Origin: Candidatus Moraniibacteriota bacterium
GTDB lineage: Bacteria; Patescibacteriota; Minisyncoccia; Moranbacterales; GCA-2747515
Direction: 5' to 3'
Assembly (NCBI GenBank): GCA_023133275.1
Contig: JAGLWU010000021.1
Span: 1,341-65,340 of the forward strand
Length of the DNA: 64,000 bases
The position numbers were made by a program, and so were the translations under genes. The stretch's first letter is position 1; the number at the start of each line of letters is the position of its first letter. This document shows positions 10,684 through 62,512 of the stretch, one piece after another. The notes below the pieces were generated by a model that did not search any database, was not told the origin of the DNA, and saw only the letters and a program-made list of their open reading frames with translations.

Positions 10684-10720
10684 GTAGGCACTCAGAAATC
10701 TAAGTGCCTACATTATTCTT
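10684..10720 (-). terminator. Rho-independent terminator overlapping the end of ORF 10700..11266
   Basis: On the minus strand: GTAGGCAC-ttagatttctga-GTGCCTAC then TTTTTTTATCC. Confidence 0.5.
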
Positions 10721-11722: not shown

Positions 11723-13843
11723 TCACCTCACAAAACACCCCTGCAAATTCCCACCACCCACATCACCAGCCCCAACAACATCATCCCCCAACATCAACAC
11801 ATACAATTTCAAAGTCCCAAAAGACCTCTCATCCACAATCATATGATTCACCAACATCTCATCATTAACATGCACCCCCGTCTTCTCCCGAACCAGCAAA
11901 TAAAAATTCCCACCCGAAACAATCTCTTTTTCAAAACCGCCCCGCTTTACATAACACAACAACCCCTCACCCTCACTTTTAGAATTAACCAAATAAAAAA
12001 TCGCCCGAGCATACCGATTATCACCCACCACAATTTTACCAACATCATTATTTCCGCTTTTATTTTCCGATTCCAAAATATAATCCGCCACATCCCGCAA
12101 CTGACTTAAAATAATTCTGTCCGACCTTTTTAAAACAAGATCCCGACTAGATTCAATATTTTCCGTTCTCGATAAATGCAATTCCGTAAAACCAATTTTA
12201 ATATTAAACAAATTTATCACTATAAAAATAATTGTTAATCCTATCGTAATAAATTTTCCAAATCTCCGAAAAACTTTTTCAATAAAATAAAAAACAGATC
12301 CCAGTAAAATCAAAAATGGCGGATACATAAAAAGAAAAAATCGTGGAGAAATTTGATAAGCTACCAAAATTAAAAACAAACCGCCCATCACTAACCACGG
12401 CAAAATTAAAAATATCGCCGAATGTTTTTTTCTGAACAAAGAGTTGCAATTCCTTGTTAAGTTTTTACAAAATTTCCTACTTCTTCTGAACAAGAGGTCA
12501 TGACCCCTTGTTGAAATTCTGAAATATTCCTTCACACGAGAGAATGAAAAGTTTTTTAAATAAATTCTCACAGCAAATAAAGTTCGCCGAAAAAATAATT
12601 TGATCGATTTTCTATCTCTGCGCAAACCACTTTTTTTATAAACAACATAAAAATTCCTTTTAAAAATATAAAAGAAAAAAGTCGCCAAAGAAATTAAAAA
12701 TAAAATTATTGCCAAAATTAAATAAAGTAATCTCTCCTTGCAAGTCTTATCACAAATCAAAGGAAAATAACCCTGTGTTTGTTTTTTAGTAATTAATAAA
12801 TCCCGACCATGCTGATCGCCCGTAAAAATCGTGAAGAAAAAAGTACTACTTTCTTGAAAAGCTCGAAAAGTTTTTTCCGCTAAATCATGTTTATCATTTT
12901 TATCTTCCGTAACTGAAGCAATTAAACCTTTCGTATTCTTCCCGCCAGTTTTGTACTCGTTAACAATGACTGGAAAAAATAAAAGGATAATTAAACTTAA
13001 TGAAATTAAAATCGTTTGCCAAGAAATTCGTATTTTTGAAAAGATAAAATAAATTATAAAAACCACAGGAAAACATAAAAACGCAATAAAATGAAGTTGT
13101 AATAAAATTGCTGTTGAAAAAATTGCGAGAATAAACCACCGAGATATTTTTTTATTTGCAAAAAATTTATTTACAAACCAATTCTTAAAATTTATTAAAA
13201 ATTTATTAAAAAAATTGTGCTTGCCGCACGGGCAAAATACCTTTTCACAATCGTTCACTGATTTTCCATCAGCTTTTTTAAAATTAAAAAATAGTTTTTG
13301 ATTGTAAAAACGTTTTGGCAAAATATCTTTACCTAAAAAATTTCCACACCGCAACAAAGAATACGCCGCCAACATTAACCAAAAAGGCATTGAATTTGGA
13401 TTCCATGCAAATCGCCCGTAAATAATTAAAAAATAAGAAAAAGATGTTATCGTGAAAAGTAAAAAACTAATTCTTCTAGAAAAAAATTGTCGTGCGAAAA
13501 AATAGGATAACGGAATTGTTAAAATTGAAAATAGTAAATCTGGAAATGCAACAGCAACTGGCAAAGAAGTATTTTGCCAAAACATATTTCTTGCAAAAAT
13601 CTTCGCAGAAAAAAATTGGAAGTAATAAAAAATAGGACCAAGTTGTAATTCTCGCCCTCGTGCTTGTGGACCGAGTAATGGCAAATCTCTCGTTCCATCG
13701 ATCGCATCTGAAATTATGAAAACGTCTCGTGCCTGATCCAATTCAAAATGCAACCAATCTGTAAAATGATAAGTTCGTAAAAATATTCCGACAATGAATA
13801 TCGCAATTGCTAAATATATTATTTTGTTTTTTGTGTTAAACAT
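11723..13843 (-). CDS. PMT/ArnT-type GT-C membrane glycosyltransferase, paralog 2. Carries in-frame repeat-element insertions.
   Basis: N-terminus FELDQARD...PLLGPQARG is paralogous to 2256..4220. At 706 aa it is longer than its paralogs. Two stretches match the intergenic repeat family. Bases 13219-13235 encode CPCGKHNFF, and 12431-12524 encode HDLLFRRSRKFCKNLTRNCNSLFRKKHS. Confidence 0.65.
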   Translation of the reverse strand: MFNTKNKIIYLAIAIFIVGIFLRTYHFTDWLHFELDQARDVFIISDAIDGTRDLPLLGPQARGRELQLGPIFYYFQFFSAKIFARNMFWQNTSLPVAVAFPDLLFSILTIPLSYFFARQFFSRRISFLLFTITSFSYFLIIYGRFAWNPNSMPFWLMLAAYSLLRCGNFLGKDILPKRFYNQKLFFNFKKADGKSVNDCEKVFCPCGKHNFFNKFLINFKNWFVNKFFANKKISRWFILAIFSTAILLQLHFIAFLCFPVVFIIYFIFSKIRISWQTILISLSLIILLFFPVIVNEYKTGGKNTKGLIASVTEDKNDKHDLAEKTFRAFQESSTFFFTIFTGDQHGRDLLITKKQTQGYFPLICDKTCKERLLYLILAIILFLISLATFFFYIFKRNFYVVYKKSGLRRDRKSIKLFFRRTLFAVRIYLKNFSFSRVKEYFRISTRGHDLLFRRSRKFCKNLTRNCNSLFRKKHSAIFLILPWLVMGGLFLILVAYQISPRFFLFMYPPFLILLGSVFYFIEKVFRRFGKFITIGLTIIFIVINLFNIKIGFTELHLSRTENIESSRDLVLKRSDRIILSQLRDVADYILESENKSGNNDVGKIVVGDNRYARAIFYLVNSKSEGEGLLCYVKRGGFEKEIVSGGNFYLLVREKTGVHVNDEMLVNHMIVDERSFGTLKLYVLMLGDDVVGAGDVGGGNLQGCFVR

Positions 13844-26748: not shown

Positions 26749-26930
26749 GTGCTCGTCGCACGGGCTTTTGAGGTTTGCCAATGGCAAACCACTACAGATT
26801 TTTAAACTCCCTCAGACATATCATTCCAGAAAATAACTTTATAATAAAATGGAAAAATTATTTATCCGAAATCTATATTTTAAGATTTAAGAAAATTTAA
26901 AGCATAACATTCTTTCAGAATAACACACTA
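26749..26930. repeat. Mosaic palindromic intergenic repeat element (modules A+F+C+D), copy R1
   Basis: GTGCTCGTCGCACGGGC (26749-26765). Palindrome GGTTTGCCAATGGCAAACC (26772-26790). ATTTATCCGAAATCTATATTTTAAGATTTAAGAAAATTTAAA (a near-identical copy is at 45568-45609). CATTCTTTCAGAATAACAC. Confidence 0.8.
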
Positions 26931-32150: not shown

Positions 32151-32325
32151 GTGCTCGCCGCACGGGCTTTTCTGAACAAGAGATTACAACTCCTTGTTGA
32201 AATTCTAAAATATTTTTGTTATCTAAATTTTCCGTTATTTAAGTTTACTGTCATTCTGAACGGATTTAATTCTTCACTACATAATTTTTATTTCATAAAA
32301 ATTACTTCATTCAGAATGACAAATT
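32151..32325. repeat. Mosaic palindromic intergenic repeat element (modules A+B2+C/C' inverted pair), copy R2
   Basis: GTGCTCGCCGCACGGGC at 32151-32167. TTCTGAACAAGAGATTACAACTCCTTGTTGAAATTCTAAAA. CTGTCATTCTGAACGG (32249) and its inverse CATTCAGAATGACA (32308). Confidence 0.8.
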
Positions 32326-32402
32326 AAAATACCAAAAAACAAAAAGAACTAGTTATAAAACTAGTTCCTGCAAAATCATAAAACCACTTATTTCAAAAGA
32401 TA

Positions 32403-36924: not shown

Positions 36925-37008
36925 ACAATATCAATTAACTTATTTTCTAATTCGTAGAGACAAGGCATGCCTTGTCTCTACAGTCAAAAAACAATTCGAA
37001 TTACCAAT

Positions 37009-39964: not shown

Positions 39965-40125
39965 GTGCTCGCCGCACGGACTTTTCACCATTTAACTTTT
40001 TTCGAAATTCTGAAACATTTCCGTAATATCTCTTGTCATTCAAATTACCTGTCATTCTGAACGTAGTAAATTTATTGCAGATAAATTTATGTAGTGAAGA
40101 ATCCCCCACAGAGAATCATAAAACT
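39965..40125. repeat. Mosaic repeat element (modules A+C+E), copy R4
   Basis: GTGCTCGCCGCACGGAC. CCTGTCATTCTGAACG. TTATGTAGTGAAGAATCCCCCACAGAGAATCATAAAAC (module E, also at 55949-55985). Confidence 0.75.
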
Positions 40126-45429: not shown

Positions 45430-45640
45430 GTGCTCGCCGCACGGGCTTTTCTGAACAAGGGGTCATAACCCCTTGTTTAACCCCTACAAAATTATACGAC
45501 CCCCCGACCTGTCATTCCGAAAAATATATTTTCTTTCAGAGCGTAGTGATGAACTAGAAAATAATTTATCCGGAATCTATACTTTAAGATTAAAGAAAAT
45601 TTAAAATACAATACACTTCCTAAATTCCGGATAATTTTTT
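45430..45640. repeat. Mosaic repeat element (modules A+B1+C+D), copy R5
   Basis: GTGCTCGCCGCACGGGC. TTCTGAACAAGGGGTCATAACCCCTTGTTTAACC. CCTGTCATTCCGAAAAATA. ATTTATCCGGAATCTATACTTTAAGATTAAAGAAAATTTAAA. ATTCCGGATAA is the inverse of TTATCCGGAAT. Confidence 0.8.
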
Positions 45641-55828: not shown

Positions 55829-55985
55829 GTGCTCGCCGCACGGGCTTTTCTGAAACAATGGATCATGACCCCTTGTTGAAATTCTAAAAATTTTCTGTCA
55901 TTTTTACTGTCATTCTGAACGGAATAATTTTTATAAAATAAAAATTATGTAGTGAAAAATCCCCCACAGAACACCACGAAACATT
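55829..55985. repeat. Mosaic repeat element (modules A+B1+C+E), copy R6
   Basis: GTGCTCGCCGCACGGGC. TTCTGAAACAATGGATCATGACCCCTTGTTGAAATTCTAAAA. TGTCATTCTGAACGG. TTATGTAGTGAAAAATCCCCCACAGAACACCACGAAAC. Confidence 0.8.
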
Positions 55986-56089: not shown

Positions 56090-56135
56090 GTGCTCGCCAC
56101 AGAAACTTTTGAAAATACAAGTCAATTTCATGATT
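56090..56135. repeat. Repeat module A2, copy R7
   Basis: GTGCTCGCCACAGAAACTTTTGAAAATACAAGTCAATTT. Compare 37917-37960. Confidence 0.6.
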
Positions 56136-56167
56136 TCAAAATATTTAAAAATTATATCTTCCTAATT

Positions 56168-57127
56168 TTAATTTTTAACATCCAAATAAGCCCTCCTAAC
56201 CGCCAAATTAATTTTTGTCGGTCGAAATTTAACATCCAAATAATTCTTAAGCTTTCGCAAAAATAAATAAATATTCAAATAAATTTTCCAAAAACCCTTA
56301 CCGTGTTTACGAAAAAATAAAATACCTGATAAAACTAACCAATAAATTTTCTGCGACTGATTTTCCTCGCTTTGCTCTTGATGATAAACTTTTGCACTCG
56401 GAACAATCAAATTTTTCAATTCAGCTTTTTTCACTCGCAAAGATAAATCTGCATCCTCATAATAAAGAAAAAAAAATTCATCAAATAATCCAACTTTCTC
56501 AAAAACTTTTTTACTAATCAACATCGCACAACCTGTTACATATTCTGTTTCTTCTACATCTGTGTAGGGAACGGTTTGAAACCGTTCCCTACCAAACACG
56601 ACTTGAAACCATTTCCTACCAAACAATGATATACAATCAAAATGTTCCGCCCTCATTTTCCACCAATTTATTTTTCCACCACAGAACCAAATATTTTTAT
56701 ATTTTAAATCTGAATAAATCACAGGACTTACTAATCCAATTTCACTTTCATCTTTAATAGAATCAATCAATTTTGAAATTGTGTTTTTTCGCACCAATGC
56801 ATCATTGTTCAAAAGAAAAACATAATCTGCGCTATTTTCAAAAGCAAATTTTATACCAACATTATTTCCCGCTCCGAATCCGAGATTTTTTTTGTTTTTA
56901 ATAAAATAAATTTTTGAAAAGTTTTTTTCACTTGAACAATGGGTTGCAACCCATTGTTCAGCTAGATTTAAAGAATTGTCAGTAGAATTATTATCCACTA
57001 AAATTATTTCTAAATTTTGATAATTTGAATCAACTACACTTTTAATAGTTTTTAGTAAATCTGTTCCGCCATTGTAATTTAGAATTATGACAAATATTTT
57101 TGGTTTTTTTGGAATTGTACTTGACAT
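56168..57127 (-). CDS. GT2-family glycosyltransferase carrying an in-frame palindrome/tandem-repeat insert
   Basis: KIFVIILNYNGGTDLLKTIKSVVDSNYQNLEIILVDNNSTDNS (GT2 N-terminus). DxD YYEDAD. N-terminus MSSTIPKKPK shared with 61255..62427. Confidence 0.8.
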   Translation of the reverse strand: MSSTIPKKPKIFVIILNYNGGTDLLKTIKSVVDSNYQNLEIILVDNNSTDNSLNLAEQWVATHCSSEKNFSKIYFIKNKKNLGFGAGNNVGIKFAFENSADYVFLLNNDALVRKNTISKLIDSIKDESEIGLVSPVIYSDLKYKNIWFCGGKINWWKMRAEHFDCISLFGRKWFQVVFGRERFQTVPYTDVEETEYVTGCAMLISKKVFEKVGLFDEFFFLYYEDADLSLRVKKAELKNLIVPSAKVYHQEQSEENQSQKIYWLVLSGILFFRKHGKGFWKIYLNIYLFLRKLKNYLDVKFRPTKINLAVRRAYLDVKN

Positions 57128-57145
57128 AATAATAATAATTTAAAC
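57101..57145 (+). promoter_or_regulatory. Promoter cassette copy d (TTGACA + (AAT)4 + TTTAAAC), overlapping the divergent GT2 start codon
   Basis: tggtttttttggaattgtacTTGACAtaataataataatttaaac. The GT2 ATG is the reverse complement of the CAT inside TTGACAT. Confidence 0.55.
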
Positions 57146-57197
57146 TTACTTATTGGTGATAAACTGAACATTAACAAAAACATTAACGGAGGTCATC

Positions 57198-57596
57198 ATG
57201 TCATCTGATTATCCAGAAATTAATCATAATCTCGGAGAAAACGGCTACGTCATCTACGGAGAAACATACTCCTCTTTCATTAAATATGAATATCAGCTAA
57301 TACTAGGTATGATATTTACTTGCTTTGTAAGAGAGGGTTCATGGTCATTGAAGGTGAAATGGTCAGATAAAATTATAGAACCTGGCCACATCTTAAATAC
57401 CACAGAAATCCCATTTATTGATGTATTATTTGATTATCCAGTTATTAATGATTTTCTTGGATCCCAACCTTATGTGCTTCATTGTTTTAAAAGTTATGGA
57501 TACAAAAAAATACTCAAAGAGATGGATAAATATCGATTGATCTCATATACTAACAAACCAACAATTATGACTATATATATATATCTCCTCACGTAG
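57198..57596 (+). CDS. Hypothetical protein (cassette-driven ORF d)
   Basis: 132 aa. GGAGG RBS 7 nt upstream. Confidence 0.45.
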   Translation: MSSDYPEINHNLGENGYVIYGETYSSFIKYEYQLILGMIFTCFVREGSWSLKVKWSDKIIEPGHILNTTEIPFIDVLFDYPVINDFLGSQPYVLHCFKSYGYKKILKEMDKYRLISYTNKPTIMTIYIYLLT

Positions 57597-60770: not shown

Positions 60771-60955
60771 ATTGTTTGTAATTTATTAAATTTCTTTGAA
60801 AAAAATTCTGCTTTATCATAAAACATTTTCGCAAACTATCTTTTGTAATTTTAACTAAGATGAATTTAAAAATATTTATCACACGATAAAAACAAAACTC
60901 GATAATTTCAAGCTTTTTTTATTCTACTATAAAAACTTAAGATTGTCATATTTTG

Positions 60956-61262
60956 TGCTCGCCGCACGGGCTTTTCAACAAAAGGTCATGGTCCCTTGTT
61001 GAAATTCTAAAACATTTTTGTTATCAAAATTTTAGGTTTGCCACTGGCAAACCCCTACAATTTTTTATCATTTAAGTTTCTTGTCATTCTAAACGGATTT
61101 ATTTTTTCTTTAGAAAAAATAAAGGAATGAAGATTCCCTCACGAAAAATCATTAAACTTTAAATTTACTAAAAGTATCAGAAAAACTTATCTAGATTCTT
61201 CACTTCATAAATTTTTTTACAAAAAATTTATTTCGTTCAGAATGACAGGAAATTTTAAAATT
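60956..61262. repeat. Mosaic repeat element (modules A+B1+F+C/C' inverted pair), copy R8
   Basis: GTGCTCGCCGCACGGGC. TTTTCAACAAAAGGTCATGGTCCCTTGTTGAAATTCTAAAA. GGTTTGCCACTGGCAAACC. TGTCATTCTAAACGG (61092) and inverse CGTTCAGAATGACAGG (61237). Confidence 0.8.
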
Positions 61263-62427
61263 TAATCTTCTCCTCCACAAACTCCAAAATTCTATCTTTA
61301 AAAACATCTTTATCAAACTTCTCCGCAGATTTTTTAATAATATTTTTATCATAAAAATTCTCATTATCCAAAAATCGTCGCACACCATCCGCCAAAACCT
61401 CAACCGTCGGAGCATTAAAAAACTCTCCCGTAACACCTTCCTGAACAATCTCCCTCGCTCCACCTTTCCGCAAAGCAATCACTGGCAATCTAGCATTCAA
61501 CGCCTCCACGCACACAATTCCAAAATCATCCTCAGACGGAAAAATAAACGCCCGAGAATTATTTAAAATTTTCTGTTTTACCTTTTCATCCACCCAACCT
61601 AAAATTTGAATATTTTTACCAGCAATTTTTTCTAAATGTTTTCTCTCCTCACCATCACCAATCACAATCAACGGCAAATTTAATTTATTAAAAGCTTTCA
61701 CAGTCAACACCACATTTTTATAAGTAGAAAGCCGAGAGATAATCATGAAAGGTTTTTTTGAGTTTTTTCCGCATCCTCCCTTTTCTGAACAAGGGGTCAT
61801 GACCCCTTGTTCATCAAAATAATTTTCTACAAATTCAACTGGTGGATAGATAATTTCTGAATCACGTCGATAATATTTAGAAATTCTCGCTTGAGTGTAT
61901 TTTGAATTTGCAATTAAAAAATCTGGTCGCTTACTCGCCTGTGCATCCCAAATCCGCAAATAACTTAAAATTTGTCGCACAATAAAATTACTTTTAAAAT
62001 TTTTATTTCGCTTTAGATATTTTTCATTTTCATCCCAAATAAAACGCATTGGCGAATGAATGTAAGCGATGTGTTTCGTGTCAACTCGAGTTACAATTCC
62101 CTTACTCCACGCTCCCGAACTGGAAATCACCAAATCAAAATCTCGCAAATTGTAAGTTTCCACTGCCGAAGCGTAAAAAGGTAAAAGCCACCGATGATGT
62201 TTTCGAATAAACTTTGGAAATTTTTGTAAAAAAGAAGTATGGATTTTTTTGTCTTCAAACATTTTCTTCATGTTTTTTTCGTCATAAAGCAAAGTGTAAA
62301 TCGGTGCTTCGGGAAATATTTCGCAAAGTGTTTCTAATACTTTTTCCGCCCCTCCTTGATAAATTAAAAAATCATGAACAAGAGCAATTTTTAAGTTTTT
62401 AGTTTTTTTTGGATTTGTACTTGACAT
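61255..62427 (-). CDS. GT4-family (glycosyl transferase group 1) glycosyltransferase with in-frame B1-repeat insertion
   Basis: Start at MSSTNPKKTKNLKIALVHDF (internal to the longer ORF). GT4 C-domain (AFIFPSEDDFGIVCVEAL). Bases 61779-61813 match repeat module B1 and encode EQGVMTPCSEKGGCG. Confidence 0.75.
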   Translation of the reverse strand: MSSTNPKKTKNLKIALVHDFLIYQGGAEKVLETLCEIFPEAPIYTLLYDEKNMKKMFEDKKIHTSFLQKFPKFIRKHHRWLLPFYASAVETYNLRDFDLVISSSGAWSKGIVTRVDTKHIAYIHSPMRFIWDENEKYLKRNKNFKSNFIVRQILSYLRIWDAQASKRPDFLIANSKYTQARISKYYRRDSEIIYPPVEFVENYFDEQGVMTPCSEKGGCGKNSKKPFMIISRLSTYKNVVLTVKAFNKLNLPLIVIGDGEERKHLEKIAGKNIQILGWVDEKVKQKILNNSRAFIFPSEDDFGIVCVEALNARLPVIALRKGGAREIVQEGVTGEFFNAPTVEVLADGVRRFLDNENFYDKNIIKKSAEKFDKDVFKDRILEFVEEKIKF

Positions 62428-62446
62428 AATAATAATATAAAATTCA
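62401..62446 (+). promoter_or_regulatory. Promoter cassette copy e (TTGACA + (AAT)3 + ATAAAA), overlapping the divergent GT4 start codon
   Basis: agtttttttttggatttgtacTTGACAtaataataatataaaattc. Confidence 0.55.
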
Positions 62447-62512
62447 ATATTAGCTAACTCCTCACAAAATTGAGGAAAATTGTTCATTTAAAGAAAGAGG
62501 GAGATATAAAAA

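What the first reader, a model, noticed from the sequence alone, without database searches (positions are those of the whole stretch)
56564..56629. GC-rich perfect 29-bp palindrome plus 27-bp tandem duplication translated inside a GT2 gene
GTAGGGAACGGTTTGAAACCGTTCCCTAC is a perfect palindrome. The right arm is tandemly duplicated: TTGAAACCGTTCCCTACCAAACACGAC, then TTGAAACCATTTCCTACCAAACAATGA. The whole block is read in frame as LFGRKWFQVVFGRERFQTVPYTDV within the GT2 catalytic region (56168..57127). Local GC is far above the surrounding coding sequence. It looks like a third type of in-frame mini-element insertion.
Basis: seen in the sequence. Interest (0 to 1): 0.6.

Follow-up and report, generated by a model that had tools for sequence, protein, structure and literature searches.

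The report
REP hairpin element inside glycosyltransferase gene
The GC-rich palindrome in this glycosyltransferase gene is a copy of a known small mobile DNA hairpin (a "double-foot" REP element served by a RAYT transposase) that landed in frame in a tolerant protein loop, so it is real but of an already described kind.

Summary
56564-56592 is a perfect 29-nt palindrome, 52% GC in a ~30% GC Candidatus Moranbacteria contig. A diverged 27-nt tandem copy follows it. Both are translated inside an intact GT2 gene, as residues 167-188.

It is an insertion. The loop is 36 residues here against a mode of 16 in 120 homologs. AlphaFold gives pLDDT below 50 only for residues 167-187.

It is a repeated element. 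The same 29-mer, GTAGGGAACGGTTTnAAACCGTTCCCTAC, occurs with unrelated flanks in more than 120 loci from many phyla, mostly between genes.

In 13 of those loci it lies next to or inside a RAYT-like Y1 (HUH) transposase gene. There it is read in frame as VGNGLKPFPT, between the HuH and Tyr motifs. A RAYT gene carrying the identical 29-mer is very probably in the same MAG: protein accessions 307 apart, same sequencing run, same GC.

This matches the "double-foot" REPs of TnpA_REP subclass 2.4 (Quentin et al. 2018). REPs inside genes were already catalogued by Di Nocera et al. 2013.

Four orthologs carry different GTAG...CTAC palindromes at the same loop, and another carries an unrelated palindrome family there. 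The loop is a recurrent landing site.

Verdict: real, correctly read as an in-frame mini-element, and a new member of a known kind.

The parts
56564..56592 (.). Perfect 29-nt 'double-foot' REP palindrome GTAG-GGAACGGTTT-G-AAACCGTTCC-CTAC. It is read on the minus strand as G179-RERFQTVP-Y188.
   Evidence: The identical 29-mer occurs in 85 exact copies among loci L007-L126 and inside RAYT gene P0147 (L127 3049-3077).
56603..56629 (.). Diverged 27-nt tandem copy. It carries a half REP (one arm, AAACCATTTCCTAC at 56606-56619) plus 6-7 nt of flank. It is read as S167-LFGRKWFQ-V176.
   Evidence: 23/27 identity to 56570-56596 in the best register. It is the only such adjacent repeat in the window, and shuffles gave none. 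It has 4 substitutions against the intact copy, 3 of them GC-to-AT (sequence).
56549..56641 (-). Variable loop of the GT2 protein (residues 163-193) that holds the insert.
   Evidence: Loop length is 36 against a mode of 16 in 120 homologs. pLDDT is below 50 for residues 167-187 only. Orthologs carry other palindromes at this place.
56168..57127 (-). Host gene: intact family-2 glycosyltransferase (319 aa) with a GT-A fold.
   Evidence: Pfam PF00535 81.5 bits, PF13641 48.1 bits. All invariant family residues are kept. Model mean pLDDT is 88. Foldseek hits ppGalNAc-T and GlfT2, E about 1e-15.
56933..56960 (.). Second in-frame palindrome in the same gene, of a different family: TGAACAATGGGTTGCAACCCATTGTTCA, read as EQWVATHCS. 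It is a 10-aa insert.
   Evidence: The insert is present only in the query and P0002-P0005 (segment length 25 against a mode of 15). The identical 28-mer sits in a GT4 gene of another genome (L002 402-429).

Best explanation
The palindrome is a copy of a REP (repetitive extragenic palindrome) of the 'double-foot' type. It has a GTAG tetranucleotide at one end, its complement CTAC at the other, three G-C pairs at the stem base, and an A/T-rich apex. Such hairpins form on single-stranded DNA. They are bound and cut by REP-associated tyrosine (HUH/Y1) transposases, called RAYT or TnpA_REP, which are thought to spread them without target-site duplication.

One copy entered, or replaced an older REP in, a variable loop of a glycosyltransferase gene. 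It survived because two of its three reading frames are open and the loop tolerates extra residues. It is therefore translated as a disordered 20-residue extension.

The adjacent 27-nt unit is an older, decaying partial duplication of one arm plus flank.

Shown: the identity of the sequence family, its association with RAYT genes, its insertion status, and its loop location. Inferred: that RAYT moved it, that the RAYT gene is in the same genome, and that the insert is neutral for the enzyme.
For: 94 of 128 pattern matches carry both GTA/TAC feet, 85 are exact 29-mers, and there is no target-site duplication.

The copies are mostly intergenic. 35 of 128 lie in stop-free stretches of at least 150 aa, against 79% of random positions.

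13 palindrome-selected loci encode a Y1 transposase, with PF01797 above cut-off. The closest curated model is NF047646, REP-associated tyrosine transposase.

The palindrome sits in frame in that gene between the HuH and Tyr motifs. 96 of the 120 best homologs carry xxNG[LFY]KPFPT there. Others carry variants that covary as a palindrome must: VGTGLKPVPT, VGEGLKPSPT, VGAGLKPAPT.

Moranbacteria RAYT P0147 (MCK4635355.1) has the exact 29-mer in its ORF and a variant copy 24 nt upstream. The GT2 is MCK4635662.1, and both are found in run SRR13892601.

Insertion status and loop location rest.

The same REP lies in frame inside real genes elsewhere: NadE, a GT4, and a response-regulator protein.

The literature describes exactly this class. 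PMC6006769 describes double-foot REPs and REPs in frame inside subclass 2.4 tnpA_REP genes. PMC3733652 describes intragenic GTAG REPs, with dimers encoding 20-30 aa.
Against: There is only one full copy and one half copy in the 64-kb window, and no RAYT gene in the window. High copy number in this genome is therefore not shown.

The same-genome link to the RAYT rests on accession proximity, shared run, taxon label and GC content. It does not rest on a shared contig.

29 nt is not a multiple of three, so extra changes were needed to keep the frame. The exact insertion event cannot be reconstructed.

Four orthologs have a GTAG palindrome at the same place. The query copy may therefore have arisen by conversion or replacement of a resident REP rather than by a fresh insertion.

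P0147 scores 61 bits on NF047646, below the 80-bit cut-off.
Confidence: 0.78

Rival explanations
1. A resident REP at this loop was overwritten by gene conversion or template switching from another REP copy, for example the one inside the RAYT gene. No transposition event occurred in this lineage.
For: Orthologs P0002, P0004, P0005 and P0006 already have 28-nt GTAG...CTAC palindromes at the same codon position. The query and P0005 share the outer arms GTAG[G/T]GAAC and differ in the apex. The intact copy shows 0/29 changes from the family consensus, while the adjacent duplicate shows 4/27 (and sequence).
Against: Flanks next to the 29-mer show no similarity to the RAYT gene. No conversion tract is visible. 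This rival cannot be separated from RAYT-mediated replacement with the present data. It also leaves the identity of the element unchanged.
Confidence: 0.12
2. The hairpin is a selected cis-acting RNA or DNA structure of the GT2 gene, such as a translational pause, an RNase site or an attenuator, kept by compensatory evolution. It would not be a mobile element.
For: Palindromy is preserved in orthologs while the stems differ (GATT/AATC, GGTT/AACC, TGAA/TTCA). Decayed copies break mostly to G:T pairs on the sense strand. The RNA hairpin is strong, at -20.6 kcal/mol.
Against: The exact 29-mer is shared with more than 120 unrelated loci and with RAYT genes. The stem variants seen in orthologs also occur as repeats elsewhere (L002 402-429; L061). 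P0003 has a different palindrome family at the site and P0007 has none. There is no Rfam family and no terminator-like T-run.
Confidence: 0.06
3. It is an assembly or amplification artefact, that is, a chimeric inverted repeat.
For: Perfect palindromes can arise from MDA or assembly chimeras.
Against: The CDS is identical in three independent assemblies. Orthologs from other samples carry palindromes at the same site. The reading frame is intact and all family-invariant residues are kept.
Confidence: 0.01

Closest known systems
'Double-foot' REP sequences of TnpA_REP subclass 2.4 (RAYT group 4), Quentin, Siguier, Chandler & Fichant 2018 (PMC6006769)
   Same: It has a 5' GTAG and a 3' CTAC foot, three G-C pairs at the stem base, and a long stem. 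The cognate transposase gene carries the REP in frame between the HuH and Tyr motifs. The distribution is patchy across phyla.
   Different: The host is a Candidatus Moranbacteria (CPR/Patescibacteria) genome. My searches found no paper linking RAYT/REP with CPR. Placement of the local RAYT in subclass 2.4 is inferred from its features, not from a phylogeny. Its HuH-to-Tyr distance is 67 aa against a reported median of 88.
Intragenic GTAG REPs (Di Nocera, De Gregorio & Rocco 2013, PMC3733652)
   Same: A GTAG-tagged stem-loop lies entirely inside an ORF and is translated. Grouped or dimeric copies encode about 20-30 aa. Two inserts in one gene, and different REPs at the same site in orthologous genes (their recB example), are also described there.
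   Different: Their cases are mainly in Proteobacteria, Opitutus and Rickettsia, and often in DNA repair genes. Here the hosts are envelope glycosyltransferases of an ultra-small genome. Here the GTAG is paired with CTAC rather than unpaired.
Rickettsia palindromic elements (RPE), selfish DNA in protein-coding genes
   Same: A palindromic repeat is inserted in frame in genes and tolerated in surface-exposed segments. This comparison rests on general knowledge and on the mention.
   Different: RPE-1 type elements are about 100-150 bp and encode about 30-50 aa, with no demonstrated dedicated transposase. This element is 29 nt and is tied to a RAYT.
REPINs (Bertels & Rainey 2011)
   Same: They are non-autonomous hairpin repeats thought to be moved by a single-copy RAYT.
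   Different: A REPIN is two inverted REPs with a spacer. Here there is one symmetric hairpin plus a direct half copy.

Membership tests
GTAG-tagged REP (Di Nocera 2013) | Palindromic stem-loop of 20-40 bp | tested here: met
   29 nt with a 13-bp stem; DNA folding energy -13.6 kcal/mol, z = -7.7.
GTAG-tagged REP (Di Nocera 2013) | GTAG (GT[AG]G) tetranucleotide at the foot | tested here: met
   GTAG is at 56564-56567 and its complement CTAC at 56589-56592. 94 of 128 related copies keep both feet.
GTAG-tagged REP (Di Nocera 2013) | Many copies dispersed in the same genome | tested here: inconclusive
   The 64-kb window holds one full and one half copy. One identical copy and one variant lie on the probable same-genome RAYT contig. 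The element is multi-copy in other genomes, for example at least 6 copies in OY821638.1. The whole MAG was not available.
GTAG-tagged REP (Di Nocera 2013) | Predominantly extragenic | tested here: met
   35 of 128 copies lie in long stop-free stretches, against 79% of random positions. Several of those 35 lie upstream of the real gene start.
Double-foot REP / TnpA_REP subclass 2.4 (Quentin 2018) | 5' GT[AG]G plus 3' C[TC]AC, with three G-C pairs at the stem base | tested here: met
   GTAG-GGG...CCC-CTAC, compared with the description read.
Double-foot REP / TnpA_REP subclass 2.4 (Quentin 2018) | Cognate tnpA_REP gene flanked by the REP and carrying it in frame between HuH and Tyr | tested here: met
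   Seen in L071, L095, L075, L068, L045, L009 and L127. 96 of 120 homologs have the encoded peptide.
Double-foot REP / TnpA_REP subclass 2.4 (Quentin 2018) | Transposase falls in subclass 2.4 by phylogeny or profile | not tested
   No reference sequences of the subclass were available. NF047646 scores 61-73 bits, below the 80-bit cut-off. PF01797 scores 31-34 bits, above its 23-bit cut-off.
RAYT / Y1 HUH transposase (for P0147) | HuH motif and catalytic Tyr | tested here: met
   HMH at residue 76 and SFYDH with Tyr at residue 143.
RAYT-mediated mobilisation | The enzyme binds, cleaves and rejoins this REP as single-stranded DNA | not testable with these tools
   Known in vitro for the E. coli enzyme only, as cited in PMC3733652 and PMC6006769.
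REPIN | [quoted passage not shown] | tested here: not met
   One symmetric hairpin and one direct half copy.
MITE | Terminal inverted repeats with a target-site duplication | tested here: not met
   Flanking direct repeats of 2-4 nt occur in at most 4 of 85 copies.
Intrinsic terminator | GC-rich hairpin followed by a T-run | tested here: not met
   No terminator-like site on either strand in 56100-57200.
Known RNA family (Rfam 15) | Match at gathering score | tested here: not met
   No match in the window at gathering threshold. Only sub-threshold generic hairpin hits were found.

The most novel reading that the evidence does not exclude
An active RAYT-REP system in an ultra-small CPR genome repeatedly rewrites one permissive loop of envelope glycosyltransferases. 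Four orthologs carry different GTAG palindromes at the same codon position and another carries an unrelated palindrome family. Every intragenic palindrome in this 64-kb window lies in a confirmed or apparent glycosyltransferase gene. On this reading, REP turnover would act as a loop-diversifying or switchable mechanism for surface-glycan enzymes, not as neutral junk. The 29-mer would also be spreading horizontally among co-resident groundwater phyla.
Probability: 0.08. Interest if true: 0.6.

Novelty: new member of a known kind. Interest (0 to 1): 0.3.

Why it matters
It explains a strange-looking GC-rich translated palindrome as an ordinary, already described class of selfish or domesticated DNA. 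That prevents over-interpretation of the odd peptide.

There is modest added value:
- It documents a RAYT/double-foot REP system in a Candidate Phyla Radiation genome.
- It shows that one exact 29-nt REP is shared across many phyla.
- It identifies one GT-A loop as a recurrent landing pad. This is useful for annotation, because REP-derived peptides such as GRERFQTVPY and VGNGLKPFPT should be masked in homology and structure work.
- It marks a practical insertion-tolerant site in this enzyme family.

Tried and rejected
- Tandem Repeats Finder reported nothing for the 27-nt duplication. A direct period scan was needed.
- Searching papers for the sequence string returned only unrelated primers.
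- Searching for RAYT or REPIN together with CPR or Omnitrophica terms found no paper linking them.
- Rfam gave no family, and the terminator scan gave none.
- tblastn with RAYT proteins found no RAYT gene in the window or in the ortholog loci L001-L006.
- A PDB sequence search with the local RAYT found nothing at E <= 0.01.
- I first read the covarying stems at both sites as in-place compensatory evolution. I dropped this as the main explanation when the same stem variants turned up at unrelated loci (L002 402-429; L061).
- A CRISPR repeat was considered and rejected, because copies are single or irregularly spaced.
- A transferred RAYT gene fragment was rejected, because only the 29 nt match.

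Full report
**Observation.**
The sequence is as described. GTAGGGAACGGTTTGAAACCGTTCCCTAC occupies 56564-56592 and is a perfect 14+1+14 palindrome. It is 52% GC in a contig of about 30% GC. It folds as a 13-bp hairpin far better than shuffled controls: -13.6 kcal/mol as DNA (z = -7.7) and -20.6 kcal/mol as RNA (z = -7.2).

The adjacent 27-nt tandem unit is real but diverged, at 23/27 in the best register. It is the only adjacent repeat of period 24-60 at that identity in the 64 kb, and 50 shuffles gave none. Tandem Repeats Finder misses it. The second unit holds only one arm of the palindrome.

The block is read on the minus strand as SLFGRKWFQVVFGRERFQTVPY. This is residues 167-188 of a 319-aa ORF, 56168..57127. 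The ORF is a family-2 glycosyltransferase (Pfam PF00535, PF13641). The same CDS occurs in three independent assemblies, so the palindrome is not an assembly artefact.

**Host and insertion status.**
The protein is annotated in NCBI as coming from a Candidatus Moranbacteria MAG. Most of its 120 best homologs are 277-300 aa long.

Between the invariant H162 and G199, 80 of 120 homologs have 16 residues. The query has 36, a net gain of 20 aa or 60 nt. All family-invariant residues are kept.

An AlphaFold model built on the alignment has mean pLDDT 88. Its only segment below 50 is residues 167-187, which is exactly the insert, and it lies between confident strands. The fold is GT-A, with Foldseek hits to ppGalNAc-T and GlfT2.

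The same loop is lengthened by other odd or repetitive sequences in several other family members. It is therefore a permissive site.

**Orthologs.**
Six syntenic orthologs, each next to SecDF, were fetched and aligned by codon. On the coding strand the same loop position carries:

| Ortholog | Sequence at the loop | State |
|---|---|---|
| P0006 | GTAGGATTCAGGCATGCCTGAATCCTAC | perfect |
| P0004 | GTAGGGTTCAGGCATGTCTGAACCCTAT | near-perfect |
| P0005 | GTAGTGAACAGACATGCCTGTTCACTAC | one mismatch |
| P0002 | GTAGTGAGCAGGTATGTCTGTTAACTAC | decayed |
| P0003 | TGAACAAGGGGTCATGACCCCTTGTTCA | different palindrome family |
| P0007 | none | no palindrome |

A second, 10-aa insert in the same gene (56933-56960, EQWVATHCS) belongs to the P0003-type family. 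It is present only in the query and P0002-P0005.

I first read the covarying stems as compensatory evolution in place. However, the exact site-1 variant TGAACAATGGGTTGCAACCCATTGTTCA also sits in a GT4 gene of another genome (L002 402-429). Close relatives of the site-2 variants occur elsewhere too, for example GTAGGGAACAGGCATGCCTGTTCCCTAC in L061. The variants are therefore subfamilies of dispersed repeats.

**A dispersed element.**
I scanned one genome per species with the core pattern GGRAAYGGTTTNAAACCRTTYCC.

- 94 of 128 matches have both GTA and TAC feet, and 85 are the exact 29-mer.
- All four central bases occur.
- Flanks are unrelated and there is no target-site duplication.
- There is a T preference at position -1 and an A preference at +1.

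The hosts include Omnitrophota, Smithella/Syntrophaceae and other Desulfobacterota, Goldiibacteriota, Desantisbacteria, Planctomycetales, Spirochaetaceae, Bacteroidetes, and several Patescibacteria. Some genomes hold many copies.

The copies are mainly intergenic. 35 of 128 lie in stop-free stretches of at least 150 aa, against 79% of random positions. Some lie in frame inside real genes: NadE in L014, a GT4 in L094, and a response-regulator protein in L102. Only two of the three frames are open, giving VGNGLKPFPT and GRERFQTVPY. These are the frames seen in all but one of the in-ORF copies.

**Link to a transposase.**
Thirteen of the palindrome-selected loci encode a Y1/HUH transposase. PF01797 is above its cut-off. 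The closest curated model is NF047646, 'REP-associated tyrosine transposase', at 61-73 bits, below its 80-bit cut-off.

In these genes the palindrome lies in frame between the HuH motif (MPNHVHGI) and the helix GLSEIIRGFKTFSSR. There is often a second copy at the stop codon.

Of the 120 best of 995 homologs, 96 carry xxNG[LFY]KPFPT at that place. Others carry variants that covary as a DNA palindrome must: VGTGLKPVPT, VGEGLKPSPT, VGAGLKPAPT. Some carry two or three tandem or split copies.

One homolog, P0147 (MCK4635355.1, 'transposase [Candidatus Moranbacteria bacterium]'), has the exact 29-mer in its ORF at L127 3049-3077. It also has the variant GTAGTGAACGGTTTCAAACCGTTCACTAC 24 nt upstream of its start codon.

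The GT2 protein is MCK4635662.1, 307 accession numbers away. Both proteins are found in the assembly of run SRR13892601, and both contigs are about 29-31% GC. I infer that the two genes belong to one MAG. This is not proven.

**Comparison with the literature.**
Quentin, Siguier, Chandler and Fichant (2018, PMC6006769) describe TnpA_REP subclass 2.4, equal to RAYT group 4. For it they describe:

- 'double foot' REPs with 5' GT[AG]G and 3' C[TC]AC;
- three G-C pairs at the stem base;
- REPs inserted in frame inside the tnpA_REP gene between HuH and Tyr;
- a patchy distribution across phyla.

Di Nocera et al. (2013, PMC3733652) define the GTAG REP super-family. They catalogue REPs lying inside ORFs, including dimers that encode 20-30 aa, two inserts in one gene, and different REPs at the same site of orthologous genes.

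Every feature of the finding fits these descriptions. My searches found no paper that links RAYT/REP with CPR bacteria and none that quotes this sequence.

**Mechanism.**
What is shown:
- the element's family;
- its association with RAYT genes;
- its status as an insert;
- its position in a disordered loop.

What is inferred from the established properties of RAYT and IS200/IS605-type enzymes:
- the hairpin forms on single-stranded DNA;
- it is recognised through the GTAG foot;
- it is cut and rejoined without target duplication.

The intact copy shows 0/29 differences from the family consensus. The adjacent 27-nt duplicate has 4 substitutions, 3 of them GC-to-AT. The nearest ortholog, P0002, has a decayed different variant at the site. 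This suggests a recent arrival or overwriting of a resident REP, next to an older partial duplication. Transposition and conversion cannot be told apart here.

29 nt is not a multiple of three, so additional changes must have restored the frame. The exact event cannot be reconstructed.

**Rivals.**
- A selected RNA or DNA structure of the GT2 gene is unlikely, given the sharing with unrelated loci, the presence/absence pattern, the lack of an Rfam match and the lack of a terminator-like site.
- An artefact is excluded by the independent assemblies.

**Verdict.**
The element is a new member, in a new host lineage and a new host gene, of a known kind.

Noticed in passing
window 12487-12514, 45452-45479, 55854-55877, 60977-61000, 61786-61813 (and 56933-56960): A second palindrome family, TGAACAAGGGGTCATGACCCCTTGTTCA, has one open frame (EQGVMTPCS). 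It is in frame in an apparent group-1/GT4 glycosyltransferase ORF (61255..62487; judged by eye, no domain search) and, in a mutated form, in a 706-aa membrane protein (11723..13843). It is intergenic elsewhere. The intergenic copy at 45452 has a GTAG foot and a GGG/CCC base on the minus strand, like a canonical long REP.
   Followed up: partly
window 26749-26900, 32151-32340, 39965-40120, 45430-45580, 55829-55960, 60955-61260 (also 13217-13233): A composite intergenic module of about 130-300 nt is repeated six times in one orientation. It consists of GTGCTCGCCGCACGGGCTTTTC, then in most copies a recognisable palindrome (family B or GGTTTGCCAnTGGCAAACC+CTAC), then GAAATTCTAAAA, then TGTCATTCTGAACG with a hairpin. 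Part of it is read in frame in the N-terminal extension of the DnaJ ORF ([10 protein letters not shown]) and in ORF 11723..13843 (CPCGKHNFF). There is no Rfam match.
   Followed up: partly
window 36954-36981 and 10684-10711; L001 13664-13692: Other double-foot GTAG...CTAC palindromes lie between genes (GTAGAGACAAGGCATGCCTTGTCTCTAC; GTAGGCACTCAGAAATCTAAGTGCCTAC). All three GTAG-N18-28-CTAC strings in the window are hairpins.
   Followed up: partly
L045 6362-6883: A second RAYT paralog in a Parcubacteria contig carries a different double-foot REP in frame at the equivalent position: GTAGAGACGCGGTTAACCGCGTCTCTAC, read as GRDAVNRVST. Each paralog seems to hold its own REP type.
   Followed up: partly
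window GT2 (two sites), ORF 61255..62487, ORF 11723..13843; L002 360-429; L001 3358-3378; L094 4536-4564: The intragenic palindromes seen in the window lie in the GT2 (Pfam-confirmed) and in two ORFs that I judged by eye to be a GT4 (61255..62487) and a glycosyltransferase-like membrane protein (11723..13843). Intragenic palindromes also lie in called GT4 genes in L001, L002 and L094. This may reflect tolerant loops or the local gene content, and no enrichment test was done.
   Followed up: no
L006 516-545 (P0007); P0008, P0081, P0085, P0019 loop between H162 and G199: Other GT2 family members carry large inserts. P0007 has a ~30-aa insert elsewhere with a decayed GTAGAGAC-type palindrome (ESRDVINHVS). 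Several homologs have 40-67-residue repetitive inserts in the same loop as the finding.
   Followed up: partly
L047 1071-1099: One copy of the 29-nt REP lies in frame inside a region matching the intein splicing domain (PF14890), a mobile element within a mobile element.
   Followed up: no
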